From NCBI GenBank assembly GCA_964492305.1, contig CAZBJN010000002.1:279-24278 (forward strand): a stretch of 24,000 nt of DNA. The letters run 5' to 3'. Source of the DNA: an uncultured Candidatus Saccharibacteria bacterium (lineage in GTDB: Bacteria > Patescibacteriota > Minisyncoccia > Phycocordibacterales > UBA918). How positions within the stretch are numbered: the first letter of the stretch is position 1; every line of letters starts with the position of its first letter. Below the pieces are notes generated by a model, which saw only the letters and a program-made list of their open reading frames with translations, was not told the origin of the DNA and did not search any database. Made by a program: the position numbers and the translations under genes. Below, piece after piece: positions 12,927-14,263 of this stretch.

Positions 12927-13631
12927 TTAGTTATCTTTTTCACTACCGATTAGCACTTTGCGCATAATAGTGCCAGCTAAGTTTATTAGTAAACCTAATA
13001 ATACAAGACTTGTCAGGCGGGTGAGTACGAGCGTAATTGAACCGCCTGTGGTCTCAGGTTGTGCGTAGACAATTCCTCCTAGGATAGCTTTTAGCGACCA
13101 ATACATTCCAGCAGGAATACTGGCACCAGCCGCTTGGTGGTTTTCAAAGATATAAAAGAGACTGCCAAGGATAAGGGTGGCGATAGTAAGAGCAGCTACG
13201 TAAATTTCAATATTGTATAAGTAGACGGATTCTGGAGCCGGACTTTTTTTGCTGGACTTGGACAGTTTGGCAAGTCTGAGGATTCTAAGAAGACGAATGA
13301 TGCGCACTGCTCGTCCGGCCTTGAGGAAGGTGAGGTTGGCAAACCCGAGCATACTCGGCAAAATAGCGATGAGATCAATGAGTCCAAAGAAACTAAAAAT
13401 GTACTTTAGTTTTGAAGGTGCTTGGTAGATACGTATGAGATACTCGAGACTAAATATCACCACCAATACATACTCAGCAAATGTGAAATATGGCAGGTAT
13501 GGAGCCAGGGAGGGGACTGTTTCAACGGCAACCAAGAGAACGGCGATAATAGTAGCAATGGCTAGAAAACCGCCGACGTATGGCATGGTATCCAGGTCAT
13601 GATGCTTTAGGGCTTTGCGTTTGCGAGACAT
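12927..13631 (-). CDS. Ion_trans family (voltage-gated-like) cation channel subunit with a non-canonical pore sequence
   Basis: S4-like arginine ladder RAVRIIRLLRILRLAKL, several TM helices, and a pore-helix-like MYWSLKAILGGIVYAQ in place of TVGYG. ATG 13631 is preferred over the TTG at 13637. Confidence 0.7.
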   Translation of the reverse strand: MSRKRKALKHHDLDTMPYVGGFLAIATIIAVLLVAVETVPSLAPYLPYFTFAEYVLVVIFSLEYLIRIYQAPSKLKYIFSFFGLIDLIAILPSMLGFANLTFLKAGRAVRIIRLLRILRLAKLSKSSKKSPAPESVYLYNIEIYVAALTIATLILGSLFYIFENHQAAGASIPAGMYWSLKAILGGIVYAQPETTGGSITLVLTRLTSLVLLGLLINLAGTIMRKVLIGSEKDN

Positions 13632-13637
13632 ACTCAA

Positions 13638-13646
13638 ATCGTAACA
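13638..13646 (-). promoter_or_regulatory. Extended -10 element (TGtTACGAT) 6 nt upstream of the channel ATG; candidate leaderless promoter
   Basis: The minus-sense sequence reads GTGTTACGAT-TTGAGT-ATG, with the ATG at 13631. Confidence 0.35.
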
Positions 13647-13664
13647 CAGTATAATTGGCTACCC

Positions 13665-13693
13665 TTGAATAGTGGGCCCTTTTCGTGCATAAT
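13665..13693 (+). promoter_or_regulatory. Candidate promoter for tRNA-Leu
   Basis: TTGAAT (13665-13670), a 17-nt spacer, then CATAAT (13688-13693), about 30 nt upstream of the tRNA. Confidence 0.45.
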
Positions 13694-13722
13694 GTCGCCA
13701 CCTCAAAGAAAGAGAAGTACCT

Positions 13723-13809
13723 GCCCAGGTGGCGAAATTGGTAGACGCACTACCTTGAGGTGGTAGCGCCTTTACGGGCATGCTGGTTCAAATCCAGTCT
13801 TGGGCACCA
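13723..13809 (+). tRNA. tRNA-Leu (anticodon GAG), class II with a long variable arm
   Basis: GCCCAGG TG GCGAAATTGGTAGACGC A CTACC TTGAGGT GGTAG (variable arm CGCCTTTACGGGCAT) GCTGG TTCAAAT CCAGT CTTGGGC A CCA. The anticodon loop UUGAGGU gives GAG. CCA is present in the DNA at 13807-13809. Confidence 0.92.
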
Positions 13810-13893
13810 CAACGCAAATAAAAAACACCCCTTCATTTGAAGGGGTGTTTTTTATTTAGCCAGCCAACTGCTTGGCTGGCGTGCGTTGTGGTG
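13805..13893 (+). other. 89-nt three-way palindromic unit overlapping the tRNA-Leu 3' end
   Basis: Arm caccacaacgca (13805-13816, including the tRNA 3' CACCA) is the exact reverse complement of tgcgttgtggtg (13882-13893). The arms enclose a 19-bp terminator hairpin (13816-13834 / 13839-13857, followed by UUUUUUAUUU) and the 22-nt hairpin GCCAGCCAA-CUGC-TTGGCTGGC (13859-13880). Confidence 0.85.
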
Positions 13894-13948
13894 AAGCGCA
13901 GCCATAATTTCCTCGCCTTCCTAGCGAGGAAATTGGCGAGCTGGGGCA

Positions 13949-14003
13949 GCAGGTACTTAGTGCTCGTAACTAGCGAAGCTAGTGAGAACACTTAGTAACC
14001 TGC
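13949..14003 (+). repeat. Copy E (variant, 55 nt) of the ACTNAGT imperfect-palindrome family
   Basis: GCAGGT-ACTTAGTG-CTCGTAA-CTAGC-GAA-GCTAG-TGAGAAC-ACTTAGTA-ACCTGC. It has a 6-bp closing stem, two ACTTAGT boxes and a GAA-capped 5-bp mini-stem. Confidence 0.7.
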
Positions 14004-14014
14004 GCCAAGGCCGG

Positions 14015-14075
14015 GTCGAGAACACTTAGTAGATTTGGAGTCGGAGACGAACAGATATACTTAGTGATTCGTGAC
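14015..14075 (+). repeat. Copy D of the ~61-nt imperfect-palindrome repeat (end of the tRNA-Leu downstream module)
   Basis: GTCGAGAACACTTAGTAGATTTG-GAGTCGGAGACGAA-CAGATATACTTAGTGATTCGTGAC. It is near-identical to copy B, which lies on the other strand. Confidence 0.85.
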
Positions 14076-14263
14076 CAAAGACGTAACGACTAACAACTGC
14101 GATATATATTAAATAAGTTTGACCAAAGTTGTAAGCAAGCTATCTAGTGACCTAATCCAGTCTTTATAAACAAACTTAGTAGCTCTAGCCCCAATCCACC
14201 CTTACCAACCAACCCCAAATCAAGGGTTGAAACAATTGGTTCATTTTTGCGTATCAATGGAGT

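What the first reader, a model, noticed from the sequence alone, without database searches (positions are those of the whole stretch)
13805..14075. tRNA-Leu is followed by a 271-nt modular palindromic region whose first 12 nt are the tRNA 3' end
Directly visible, in order:
- The arm CACCACAACGCA (13805-13816) contains the last acceptor base, the discriminator and CCA.
- A 19-bp terminator hairpin with a U-tract follows (13816-13857).
- A 22-nt hairpin follows, with a 9-bp stem and CUGC loop (13859-13880).
- The exact 12-nt complement of the arm, TGCGTTGTGGTG, lies at 13882-13893.
- After a 12-nt spacer comes an 11-bp hairpin (13906-13934).
- Two long imperfect palindromes follow (13949-14003 and 14015-14075).

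The same order, spacings (zero-nt junctions, 12-nt spacer) and unit length (88-89 nt) recur downstream of tRNA-Val and tRNA-Arg, with different stem sequences. That combination indicates selection on structure rather than on sequence.

I know of no described bacterial element in which a tRNA 3' end is one arm of a three-way junction enclosing its own terminator. Possible roles are control of tRNA 3' processing or read-through, a structured trailer RNA, a single-strand DNA recombination substrate, or a tRNA-targeting non-autonomous mobile element.
Basis: partly seen in the sequence, partly recalled or inferred. Interest (0 to 1): 0.85.

Follow-up and report, generated by a model that had tools for sequence, protein, structure and literature searches.

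The report
Structured mini-elements homing to tRNA ends
The palindromic stretch after tRNA-Leu is real: it is the youngest of several copies of an apparently undescribed family of about 200-nt, non-coding, hairpin-rich insertion elements that in Patescibacteria sit in the 3' ends of tRNA genes, rebuild the gene end they displace, and carry an antisense copy of their own target.

Summary
The folds are far beyond chance (z -13 and -9).

The 88-nt module is only the left arm of a larger element. The layout is gene end X, an element-borne terminator, an optional 9-bp hairpin (hp2), a 12-nt antisense segment (N12), and then a conserved core of about 110 nt ending in a 60-nt hairpin.

- **Distribution.** A structural pattern for that hairpin finds 108 loci. 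About 104 are in Patescibacteria, and most lie about 120 nt downstream of a same-strand tRNA, across 18 isotypes.
- **Structure.** The core covaries strongly: 98.4% of cells paired against 85% in shuffles. It folds on the tRNA-sense strand and matches no Rfam family.
- **Target.** N12 complements the upstream gene in two strict registers, starting at T54 or at position 70. The DNA after the core restarts at the third target nucleotide.
- **Other hosts.** Copies also follow tmRNA, ftsZ and rplB.
- **Turnover.** Orthologous tRNA sites in relatives are empty or hold other variants. A relative with about 90% identical genes has older T-loop-type elements where the window has the reported type.

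Best reading: non-autonomous, site-specific insertion elements. Guide-directed targeting is my inference, and no enzyme was found.

The parts
13723..13809 (+). tRNA-Leu(gag), the host gene. CCA is encoded here.
   Evidence: ARAGORN; Rfam tRNA, 51.5 bits.
13805..13816 (+). X (n1-n12): the last tRNA bases plus the element-borne trailer. It pairs with N12.
   Evidence: pair I2, 12/12 complementary. The same geometry holds in 30 type I copies.
13816..13857 (+). Element-borne intrinsic terminator: an A tract, a GC stem and a T tract.
   Evidence: pair I1. The relative L114 has a different hairpin at the same tRNA.
13859..13880 (+). hp2: an optional accessory hairpin with a 9-bp stem and a CTGC loop. 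When present it lies G + 12 nt before the core.
   Evidence: It recurs with compensatory stems in many loci.
13882..13893 (+). N12: a 12-nt antisense segment complementary to X.
   Evidence: pair I2. Across the family the match has 0, 1 or 2 mismatches in 24, 36 and 12 of 106 copies.
13894..13945 (+). Core junction: P1a, a GA-rich internal loop, P2a, the variable hairpin hp3 (13906-13934), P2b, CGAG, P1b and GGG.
   Evidence: Consensus structure and covariation of P1 and P2. hp3 is pair I4.
13946..14008 (+). Terminal hairpin of the young element ('unit c', GCAG...CTGCGC).
   Evidence: Fold. The same unit type directly abuts the target copy in L154 and L148.
14015..14075 (+). 'Unit a': a conserved 60-nt hairpin, GTCGAGA..GA-[mini-hairpin]-GAA..TCGTGAC. 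It is probably inherited from an older element.
   Evidence: covariance-model hit at 70.7 bits; 13 of the 20 pairs in this helix show compensatory changes.
14076..14151 (+). Decayed remains of older elements, with repeated ...TGAC|CAAAG ends. The stretch ends in GTGAC (14147-14151).
   Evidence: family D3. The right junction is orthologous to L114 7252-7259.
14152..14164 (+). X' relic: a direct copy of the tRNA-Leu T-loop and T-stem (CTAATCCAGTCTT). It is the old target end displaced by a T-loop-type insertion.
   Evidence: family D4 (11/11 with 13791-13801). The same junction is present in L114.
10329..10402 (-). tRNA-Val(tac), a host gene.
10133..10333 (-). Young type I element after tRNA-Val. 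X is at 10333-10322, followed by the terminator, hp2 at 10280-10259, N12 at 10257-10246, and the core running to 10133.
   Evidence: covariance-model hit at 106.1 bits. It is absent from the relative L114.
9979..10122 (-). Older type II (T-loop) element. The antisense copy of the tRNA-Val 3' end is at 10122-10106, hp2 at 10107-10086, N12 at 10084-10073, and the core runs to 9979.
   Evidence: Covariance-model hit at 99.1 bits. It is 96% identical to L114 3374-3521, where it sits directly next to tRNA-Val.
9966..9978 (-). X'' relic: a direct copy of tRNA-Val from C56 (CAAATCTCTCATC).
   Evidence: Read directly from the sequence.
9745..9817 (-). tRNA-Arg(tct), a host gene.
9562..9749 (-). Type I element after tRNA-Arg. 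X is at 9749-9738, followed by the terminator, hp2 at 9695-9674, N12 at 9672-9661, and the core runs to 9562.
   Evidence: covariance-model hit at 92.2 bits; fold z = -9.0. L114 has a type II element at this tRNA instead.

Best explanation
The region is one member of a large, diverse family of small (about 150-250 nt), non-coding, non-autonomous insertion elements. I call the family E. It is found in Patescibacteria, in the Paceibacteria, Kaiserbacteria and Nomurabacteria lineages. The elements are site-specific for the 3' ends of tRNA and tmRNA genes, and occasionally for protein genes.

**Parts of an element, in order**
1. A replacement copy of the gene end it displaces (X).
2. Its own hairpin, which in the window's type is a full terminator.
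3. An antisense copy of the target. Its last 12 nt (N12) sit at a fixed position, directly before the core.
4. A conserved structured core (P1, P2, hp3, and a terminal 60-nt hairpin with GA / GAA motifs).

The displaced original gene end (X') follows the core and decays.

**Two insertion registers**
- Type II: between T55 and C56 of the T-loop.
- Type I, the type in the window: between positions 71 and 72.

**What happened in the window**
Young type I elements have landed between each of three tRNAs and older type II elements.

**Mechanism**
- Shown: the anatomy, the two registers, the gene restoration, the presence/absence polymorphism and the rapid turnover.
- Inferred, at about 40% on its own: the folded single strand (RNA, or single-stranded DNA, of the tRNA-sense strand) uses N12 as a guide. 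N12 base-pairs with target nucleotides n1-n12. A trans-acting, still unidentified recombinase or nuclease then joins the element so that its 3' end abuts n3. A circular or otherwise permuted intermediate carrying X would integrate Campbell-style.
For: **Family and tRNA linkage**
- The pattern scan finds 108 loci, about 104 of them Patescibacteria. I estimated about 4 chance hits, and 4 hits in other phyla were seen.
- 69 of 116 pattern matches lie 81-190 nt downstream of a same-strand tRNA, across 18 isotypes.
- The covariance model gives 158 hits. 94 of 133 tRNA or tmRNA genes in those loci have one within 400 nt downstream.

**Structure**
- 27 pairs, 18 of them with compensatory changes.
- 98.4% of cells are paired against 85.0% in shuffles.
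- Covariation score 0.420 against 0.163, reached by 0 of 500 shuffles. Slid controls give 0.02-0.07.
- G.U pairs number 95 against 9 A.C, so the tRNA-sense strand is the one that folds.

**Target relation**
- N12 complements a 12-mer in the upstream 160 nt with 2 or fewer mismatches in 72 of 106 copies. My calculation of the chance rate is about 0.006 per copy.
- n1 sits at -20 (range -19 to -22) in 31 copies and at -4 (range -2 to -6) in 30.
- X' starts at n3 in 21 of 27 clear cases.
- In 30 type I copies, n1n2 (7 different dinucleotides) pair with N12 in 30 of 30. n6-n12 differ in 27 of 30 yet stay paired.

**Insertion and gene restoration**
- X' is followed by a different, ordinary terminator.
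- ftsZ: the functional end and the relic both encode SKLK* with different codons.
- Copies also sit at rplB and tmRNA.

**Mobility**
- Relative L114 has 89.9% nucleotide identity in the genes between the tRNAs. It carries type II elements at all three tRNAs, and the window retains their orthologues or relics downstream of its type I elements.
- Orthologous tRNA-Val sites are empty in 6 relatives and filled with different core families in others.
- In loci chosen without regard to E, 27 of 133 tRNAs carry a copy of their own 3' end downstream, against 2 of 133 upstream.
Against: - No transposase, integrase or reverse transcriptase lies in the window. None recurs in 108 neighbourhoods of 8 kb. 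The mobilising enzyme is therefore unknown, and movement has not been observed directly.
- A terminator precedes the core in type I elements. An RNA form of the core would need read-through or its own promoter, so the folded species could be single-stranded DNA instead.
- The n2|n3 junction may only mark where identity between the element and the target begins. It need not be a cleavage site.
- In type I elements only 4-5 nt of N12 are tRNA-specific. The rest pairs with element-borne trailer.
- Core similarity across tRNA isotypes could come from recombination between resident copies rather than from retargeting.
- The conserved positions of the 60-nt hairpin were partly imposed by the search pattern.
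- X was located as the best match to N12. The strict offsets are the independent check on that step.
Confidence: 0.6

Rival explanations
1. The elements are remnants or miniature derivatives of classical integrase-driven integrative elements (CIME-like). A tyrosine integrase recognises the T-loop or the 3' end of the tRNA gene as double-stranded DNA. The direct repeats are attL and attR. The antisense copy and the hairpins have no guiding role.
For: - The targets are tRNA and tmRNA 3' ends.
- The direct repeats of the gene end, and the restoration of the gene, are as expected for attP sites that carry the gene's 3' end.
- In L114 a 1.2-kb stretch with two ORFs lies next to a further copy of the tRNA-Val end.
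Against: - No integrase gene lies near any of about 110 loci.
- A core of about 110 nt is conserved, with 98% pairing, compensatory changes and G.U pairs on one strand. Double-stranded att arm sites would not be expected to show this.
- One core family serves at least 18 tRNA isotypes plus protein genes. Known integrases are each specific for one attB.
- The antisense copy sits at a fixed distance from the core.
Confidence: 0.15
2. The elements are made by a retroelement route. The terminated tRNA precursor snaps back on its own terminator. A reverse transcriptase extends it, producing the antisense copy, then switches to a core RNA. The product integrates by homology with the tRNA gene.
For: - X, trailer, hairpin, anti-trailer and anti-X form one long palindrome centred on the hairpin loop.
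- The terminators have A tracts that would pair with the 3' U tract.
- Target-specific parts differ between otherwise very similar cores. This would fit templated copying of each new target.
Against: - No reverse transcriptase gene was seen near any copy.
- At ftsZ only N12 is antisense and there is no extended palindrome.
- hp2 interrupts the antisense arm at a position fixed relative to the core, not relative to the target.
- The covariation points to the tRNA-sense strand as the folded one. In this route that strand would be the cDNA.
Confidence: 0.1
3. The region is a host device: a cis-acting structured trailer that controls termination, 3' processing, stability or read-through of the adjacent tRNA. 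It would be inherited vertically and kept by compensatory evolution.
For: - It is always co-oriented with and adjacent to the gene.
- The arm helix is maintained by covariation even where the trailer is free to vary.
- A terminator is part of the module.
- It is abundant in small genomes.
Against: - Orthologous tRNAs in relatives have no such trailer.
- Close relatives carry different types at the same tRNA.
- There are decaying displaced gene ends and tandem arrays.
- Copies occur at the ftsZ and rplB ends.
- Copies flanked by tRNA-His fragments occur at non-tRNA sites.
- Pairing of N12 to positions 70-73 or 54-65 would compete with the tRNA fold rather than help it.
Confidence: 0.1
4. The region is chance terminator-like palindromes, or an assembly artefact of inverted repeats.
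For: Short-read contigs of the same population break exactly at these palindromes: L001 spans window 10329-13893.
Against: - The z-scores are -13 and -9.
- More than 150 copies come from dozens of independent assemblies, including contigs of 0.3-0.96 Mb.
- One element is conserved at 96% between the window and L114.
Confidence: 0.01

Closest known systems
Integrative elements and their integrase-less derivatives (CIMEs) that target tRNA and tmRNA genes
   Same: - Insertion is into the T-loop or the extreme 3' end of tRNA or tmRNA genes.
- The element supplies a replacement 3' end.
- The displaced end remains as a direct repeat.
- Successive insertions build arrays of gene-end copies.
   Different: - These elements are 150-250 nt long and have no gene.
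- One core family serves at least 18 isotypes, plus ftsZ and rplB.
- They carry an antisense copy of the target and a covarying single-strand fold.
- No integrase was found nearby.
Elements that choose targets by base pairing: IS110/IS1111 bridge or seek RNAs, IS200/IS605 DNA guides, and the TnpB omega RNA
   Same: - A short segment inside the element is complementary to the insertion site.
- That segment sits at a fixed place in a conserved fold.
- A structured hairpin directly abuts the flank, as at the right end of IS200/IS605 elements.
   Different: - No DEDD, Y1 or TnpB gene lies nearby.
- There is a single 12-nt guide rather than two loops, or a 4-nt guide.
- The target end is duplicated and restored, which IS200/IS605 elements do not do.
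- The architecture and sequence are unrelated, and there is no Rfam hit.
Folded single-strand recombination sites: integron attC and the CTX-phage attP(+) hairpin (from my own knowledge)
   Same: - Structure is conserved more than sequence.
- They are imperfect palindromes.
- A hairpin rebuilds a double-stranded copy of the attachment site. Here that hairpin is X paired with anti-X.
   Different: - There is no GTTRRRY core and no dif-like site.
- No intI gene or phage genome is present.
- The targets are tRNA gene ends.
MITEs and other small bacterial repeats: Correia elements, REP/BIME, and Rickettsia palindromic elements (from my own knowledge)
   Same: - They are small, non-coding, hairpin-rich and multicopy.
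- Some insert in frame in genes or in tmRNA.
- They probably depend on functions supplied in trans.
   Different: - There are no terminal inverted repeats.
- There is no fixed short target duplication: 4 nt in one type against 18 nt or more in the other.
- Site and orientation specificity are strict.
- Each copy carries target-specific sense and antisense segments.

Membership tests
Any Rfam 15 RNA family (including ribozymes, tracrRNA or omega-like RNAs, and leaders) | A covariance-model match at the family's gathering score. | tested here: not met
   Only tRNAs pass in the window. At E <= 10, the only matches that overlap the elements are far below gathering score and lie on their hairpins. 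In 18 further loci only tRNA, tmRNA, group I intron and LOOT RNA were found.
Intrinsic terminator (sub-part 13816-13857) | A GC-rich hairpin followed by a T tract. | tested here: met
   (plus-strand site 13829-13845 with the tail TGTTTTTTAT); pair I1.
Classical MITE | Terminal inverted repeats. | tested here: not met
   The ends are C(A/G)(C/A)... on the left and ...TCGTGAC on the right. No inverted repeat between the two ends appears in the copies listed.
Classical MITE | A target-site duplication of fixed short length. | tested here: not met
   The direct repeat ranges from 8 to 99 nt. It is about 4 nt in type I and 18 nt or more in type II.
Integrase-type integrative element in a tRNA gene | Direct repeats of the tRNA 3' end flanking the element, with the gene restored. 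| tested here: met
Integrase-type integrative element in a tRNA gene | An integrase gene within or next to the element. | tested here: not met
   All window ORFs are housekeeping. No recombinase recurs in 108 loci. Whole genomes could not be searched.
IS110/IS1111 with bridge or seek RNA | A DEDD recombinase gene adjacent to the non-coding RNA. | tested here: not met
IS110/IS1111 with bridge or seek RNA | Two internal loops, each holding paired guides for target and donor. | tested here: inconclusive
   Only one target-complementary segment is evident. Whether X, which is identical to the target, plays the donor role cannot be decided from sequence.
IS200/IS605 derivative (PATE) or OMEGA guide | Insertion without target duplication, next to a short fixed motif. 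| tested here: not met
   The gene end is duplicated. The left flanks are TT or NN, with no common motif.
IS200/IS605 derivative (PATE) or OMEGA guide | A tnpA or tnpB gene in the genome that mobilises it. | not testable with these tools
   Only slices of about 8 kb per genome were available.
Integron attC | R''/R' core sites (RYYYAAC / GTTRRRY) and an intI gene. | tested here: not met
   The base of the unit hairpin is GTCGAGA / TCGTGAC. No intI is present.
Group II intron (terminator-targeting class C) | Intron domains, such as domain V, recognisable by Rfam models. | tested here: not met
   No hit. The elements are also far too small.

The most novel reading that the evidence does not exclude
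E elements may be a new class of nucleic-acid-guided, programmable insertion system. A 12-nt guide is held in a conserved fold of about 110 nt. It pairs with the target strand and fixes the joining point two nucleotides into the paired segment. This would allow one non-coding scaffold to be retargeted to almost any tRNA, to tmRNA and even to protein-gene ends, while rebuilding the gene it enters. The catalyst would be an unknown host or trans-acting enzyme, or conceivably the fold itself.
Probability: 0.3. Interest if true: 0.92.

Novelty: new variant of a known kind. Interest (0 to 1): 0.8.

Why it matters
- **A hidden, active mobilome.** Patescibacteria (the candidate phyla radiation) have tiny genomes and usually single-copy tRNA genes. 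A family of selfish elements occupies a sizeable share of those genes without killing them: 20% of tRNAs in an unbiased sample carried a copy of their own 3' end downstream, and 71% of tRNA/tmRNA genes in element-selected loci had a core within 400 nt. It turns over between genomes whose genes are 90% identical. This points to active mobile DNA in organisms thought to be poor in it.
- **A possible programmable system.** The fixed-position antisense segment and the constant junction offset give a concrete, testable hypothesis of guide-directed insertion by a very small scaffold. If true, it would be a new programmable targeting principle.
- **Practical consequences.** These palindromes break short-read assemblies at tRNA loci. 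They also create pseudo-tRNA fragments that confuse annotation.
- **A resource.** The core is a new structured-RNA (or single-stranded DNA) family with strong covariation. It is suitable for Rfam-style curation.

Tried and rejected
- **Cyanobacterial repeats, or ends or homing guides of type V-K CRISPR-associated transposons.** This was my first guess. I dropped it when the window proved to be Patescibacteria from groundwater and no Tn7 or Cas genes were present.
- **Known RNA families.** Rfam at gathering score and at E <= 10, plus 18 further loci, gave nothing for the element.
- **Hammerhead, k-turn or C/D-box readings of the GA / GAA motifs.** By eye, the unpaired CUGA of a hammerhead and the 3-nt bulge of a k-turn are absent. 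There was no Rfam support.
- **Primer-binding site for a mature tRNA.** The antisense copy matches the gene plus its trailer, not a CCA end, and in type I it covers only 4-5 tRNA nucleotides.
- **Phage origin.** The same pattern gave 0 hits in viral contigs.
- **A linked enzyme.** Clustering 782 ORFs from the loci gave only housekeeping families. It also gave a 227-aa helix-turn-helix protein next to tRNA-Gly, with no informative match. The two ORFs in the L114 insertion have no Pfam match.
- **Literature.** Six full-text searches found no description of this element. One further query was rejected for its syntax.
- **Regex parsing.** A first regex parse of the core failed for 19 of 111 copies. 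I replaced it with a covariance model.
- **Exact-protein look-up.** A look-up of the gene downstream of tRNA-Leu found nothing.
Full report
**1.

tRNA-Leu(gag) ends at 13809.
- the 12-mer CACCACAACGCA at 13805-13816;
- the 20-bp-arm terminator at 13816-13857;
- the 9-bp hairpin with a CTGC loop at 13859-13880;
- the exact complement TGCGTTGTGGTG at 13882-13893;
- the 11-bp hairpin at 13906-13934.

The two long palindromes appear in the minimum-free-energy fold. That fold is 13 standard deviations more stable than shuffles. The tRNA-Arg trailer gives z = -9. The same layout follows tRNA-Val and tRNA-Arg on the minus strand.

**2. The module is the left arm of something larger.**

All three tRNA trailers end in a near-identical 60-nt hairpin, GTCGAGAACACTTAGTAGATTTGGAGTCGGAGACGAACAGATATACTTAGTGATTCGTGAC. 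An exact 17-mer from it occurs three times against 0.1 expected. The Arg copy has a compensatory change in the mini-hairpin, GTCGGAGAC to GGCGAAGCC.

Between the arm complement and this hairpin lie two short helices, P1 and P2, which enclose a variable hairpin, hp3. After the hairpin come partial direct copies of the tRNA's own T-loop and T-stem:
- Leu: AATCCAGTCTT at 14154-14164 (family D4);
- Val: CAAATCTCTCATC at 9978-9966.

A covariance model built later finds four copies in the window: two in tandem after tRNA-Val, one after tRNA-Arg and one after tRNA-Leu.

**3. It is a family.**

The window comes from a groundwater Patescibacterium. I scanned one genome per species of bacteria and archaea with a structural pattern for the 60-nt hairpin. 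The scan gave 108 loci. All but four are Patescibacteria (Paceibacteria, Kaiserbacteria, Nomurabacteria and relatives). I had estimated about four chance hits from the pattern's information content.
- 69 of 116 pattern matches lie 81-190 nt (mode about 122) downstream of a tRNA on the same strand, covering 18 isotypes.
- Others follow tmRNA, tRNAs interrupted by group I introns, or lie at contig edges.
- A covariance model from 74 copies gives 158 hits in 100 loci. 94 of 133 tRNA or tmRNA genes there have a hit within 400 nt downstream.
- No Rfam family matches.
- No viral contig carries the pattern.
- Six literature searches found no description.

**4. The core is a folded single strand.**

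On 74 copies:
- 27 predicted pairs are 98.4% paired, against 85.0% after shuffling;
- 18 pairs show compensatory changes;
- 303 cells have a change on both sides, against 93 in shuffles;
- the covariation score is 0.420 against 0.163, reached by 0 of 500 shuffles. Partners slid by 1-3 columns give 0.02-0.07.

A G.U pair at the base of the terminal hairpin is kept in 69 of 74 copies. Overall there are 95 G.U cells against 9 A.C. The tRNA-sense strand is therefore the one that folds, as RNA or as single-stranded DNA.

One caveat applies. Four short motifs of the hairpin were imposed by the search pattern. The covarying positions were not.

**5. Relation to the target.**

The 12 nt just before P1 (N12) are the reverse complement of a 12-mer, n1-n12, in the upstream gene. 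The match has 0, 1 or 2 mismatches in 24, 36 and 12 of 106 copies. By my calculation, chance gives about 0.006 per copy.

The position of n1 is strictly bimodal:
- T54 of the T-loop in 31 copies (type II);
- position 70 of the acceptor stem in 30 copies (type I, the type in the window).

The DNA after the core restarts at n3 in 21 of 27 clear cases. It reads CGAATCC... in type II and CAC(A) in type I.

In 30 type I copies the two flanking tRNA bases n1n2 take 7 different dinucleotide values and pair with N12 in 30 of 30. The trailer part n6-n12 differs in 27 of 30 copies yet stays paired.

Where hp2 is present it sits G + 12 nt before the core, whatever the target. In type II this splits the antisense copy between its acceptor part and its T-arm part.

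Counted from the 5' end of N12, the junction lies opposite positions 10 and 11. I record this only as a geometric fact.

**6. They are insertions that rebuild the gene.**

- In type II loci the copy after the core (C56 to the 3' end) is followed by a different, ordinary trailer and terminator. The hairpin next to the live tRNA is often a conserved, element-borne one without a T tract.
- At ftsZ (Pfam Tubulin and FtsZ_C) the live end reads AGT AAG CTT AAG TAA. The displaced relic reads TCT AAA CTA AAA TAA. Both encode SKLK-stop, so the element brought its own version of the gene end.
- Another copy sits on the stop codon of rplB.
- Elements flanked by a tRNA-His 3' fragment occur at sites with no tRNA-His 5' half.
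- Tandem arrays with two or three copies of the gene end exist, for example L066 and L078.

**7. They turn over quickly.**

A metagenome contig of 962 kb (L114) is a close relative. It has 89.9% nucleotide identity over the 3.5 kb of genes between tRNA-Val and tRNA-Leu. At all three tRNAs it carries type II elements, where the window has type I elements next to the tRNA. The window still holds the L114-type elements, or their relics, further downstream:
- the second element after tRNA-Val is 96% identical to the one that abuts tRNA-Val in L114;
- the junction GTGAC|CTAATCCAGTCTT at 14147-14164 is the right end of L114's tRNA-Leu element;
- the tRNA-Arg loci share the terminal hairpin and the flank.

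The reported region is therefore a younger insertion between the tRNA and older elements.

In more distant relatives with the same gene order, the orthologous tRNA-Val site is empty in six loci. In others it is filled with different core families.

In this sample, which was chosen without regard to the element, 27 of 133 tRNAs have an exact inverted or direct copy of at least 10 nt of their own 3' end within 400 nt downstream. Only 2 of 133 have one upstream.

At least two further core families share the architecture and the apical GA-hairpin-GAA motif.

Core similarity does not follow tRNA isotype. For example, 88% identity links a Trp copy and a Leu copy whose N12 segments differ at 9 of 12 positions.

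**8. How it most likely works.**

Shown:
- a site- and orientation-specific, non-coding element;
- a replacement gene end, its own hairpin or terminator, an antisense copy of the target at a fixed place in a conserved fold, and a constant right junction;
- presence/absence polymorphism and replacement between close relatives.

Inferred:
- The element moves as a permuted, probably circular, form in which the core end is joined to n3 of X.
- It integrates by exchange within the identity between X and the gene end. This explains the relic, the restored gene, the arrays and the secondary sites.
- N12, which matches the uninterrupted target two bases further than X does, serves as a guide that selects the site for a trans-acting enzyme.

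I give the mobile-element reading about 0.85. I give guidance by N12 about 0.4. The combined statement gets 0.6.

No enzyme was found in the window or in 108 neighbourhoods.

The terminator ahead of the type I core leaves open whether the active fold is RNA or single-stranded DNA.

**9. Rivals.**

- Classical integrase scars share the target choice and the repeats. They do not explain the covarying single-strand core, the antisense copy, or one core serving many targets.
- A snap-back reverse-transcription origin explains the long palindromes. It lacks an RT and fails at ftsZ, where only N12 is antisense.
- A host tRNA-processing device is contradicted by the empty orthologues, the protein-gene sites and the relics.
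- Chance and assembly artefact are excluded.

**10. Comparison and novelty.**

The elements behave like miniature tRNA-targeting integrative elements. They resemble guide-using elements (IS110 bridge RNAs, IS200/IS605 guides) in having a target-complementary segment in a fixed scaffold. They fail the defining tests of each family (see the membership table) and match nothing in Rfam. I file them as a new variant of a known kind, site-specific gene-end insertion elements. I put a 0.3 chance on their being a categorically new guided system.

**Limits.**

- I had only slices of about 8 kb per genome, and no expression data.
- X was located by its best match to N12.
- Comparisons with published systems rest on my own knowledge, not on papers read here.

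Noticed in passing
L009, L017, L038, L068, L074, L081, L101, L112 (for example L101, about 3870-4554, minus strand): A conserved protein of about 225 aa has an N-terminal resolvase- or homeodomain-type helix-turn-helix and an unknown C-terminal part. In L009, L017, L081 and L101 it sits directly upstream of a tRNA-Gly that lacks a family-1 (R1-model) core; two of those carry other core types. There was no informative Pfam, NCBIfam or PDB match.
   Followed up: partly
L114 2140-3180 (minus strand): A 1.2-kb stretch absent from the window holds two unknown ORFs of 131 and 136 aa with no Pfam match. It lies between the last copy of the tRNA-Val 3' end and the shared flank, like cargo of a larger insertion at the same hotspot.
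   Followed up: partly
L114 about 1880-2060 (minus strand); window 9818-9905: Upstream of tRNA-Arg, L114 has a dead second copy of the tRNA-Arg 5' half. A hairpin and a family-2 element sit inside its T-loop. The window has a hairpin containing GCCCCTGTAAG, a partial copy of the tRNA-Arg 5' end.
   Followed up: no
L024, L040, L054, L056, L066, L072, L096, L164, L189 and others: A second core family (...GGTGTACTGAnnnTGTAAG, followed by the gene-end copy starting around positions 53-59) and a third terminal hairpin type (GGGCAG...CTGCGCC) share the same architecture and the apical GA-hairpin-GAA motif.
   Followed up: partly
L068 3498-3745 and L074 1652-1910: Group I introns interrupt the tRNA genes that precede the elements. 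L068 also encodes a LAGLIDADG-like ORF there.
   Followed up: no
L001 (equivalent to window 10329-13893): Short-read contigs of the same population start at the tRNA-Val 3' end and stop at the end of the arm complement after tRNA-Leu. Assemblies therefore break at these palindromes.
   Followed up: no
L109 7825-7943 and L073 7558-7674: LOOT RNA (Rfam RF03000) is present in two loci. It is not adjacent to the elements.
   Followed up: no
L046 863-970 and 2598-2718, L036 205-315, L065 3706-3831: Elements flanked on the right by a full tRNA-His 3' fragment have on the left a conserved non-tRNA sequence (...ACAGTTCTAACATCCTCTACGACGTCGCCCA). This could be the start of a small gene on the opposite strand. 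L065 holds two identical copies 3 kb apart.
   Followed up: partly
window 12890-12928: A strong bidirectional terminator (17 pairs) lies between the convergent L19 and ion-channel genes. It drew several sub-threshold Rfam leader-peptide matches, which I take to be spurious.
   Followed up: no
L086 about 5230-5500 (minus strand): Three tandem copies of a repeat of about 60 nt (CACACGGGCACTTCTTGTTTTCTAAC...) precede an element. The stretch contains a run of N, so part of it may be a scaffolding gap.
   Followed up: no
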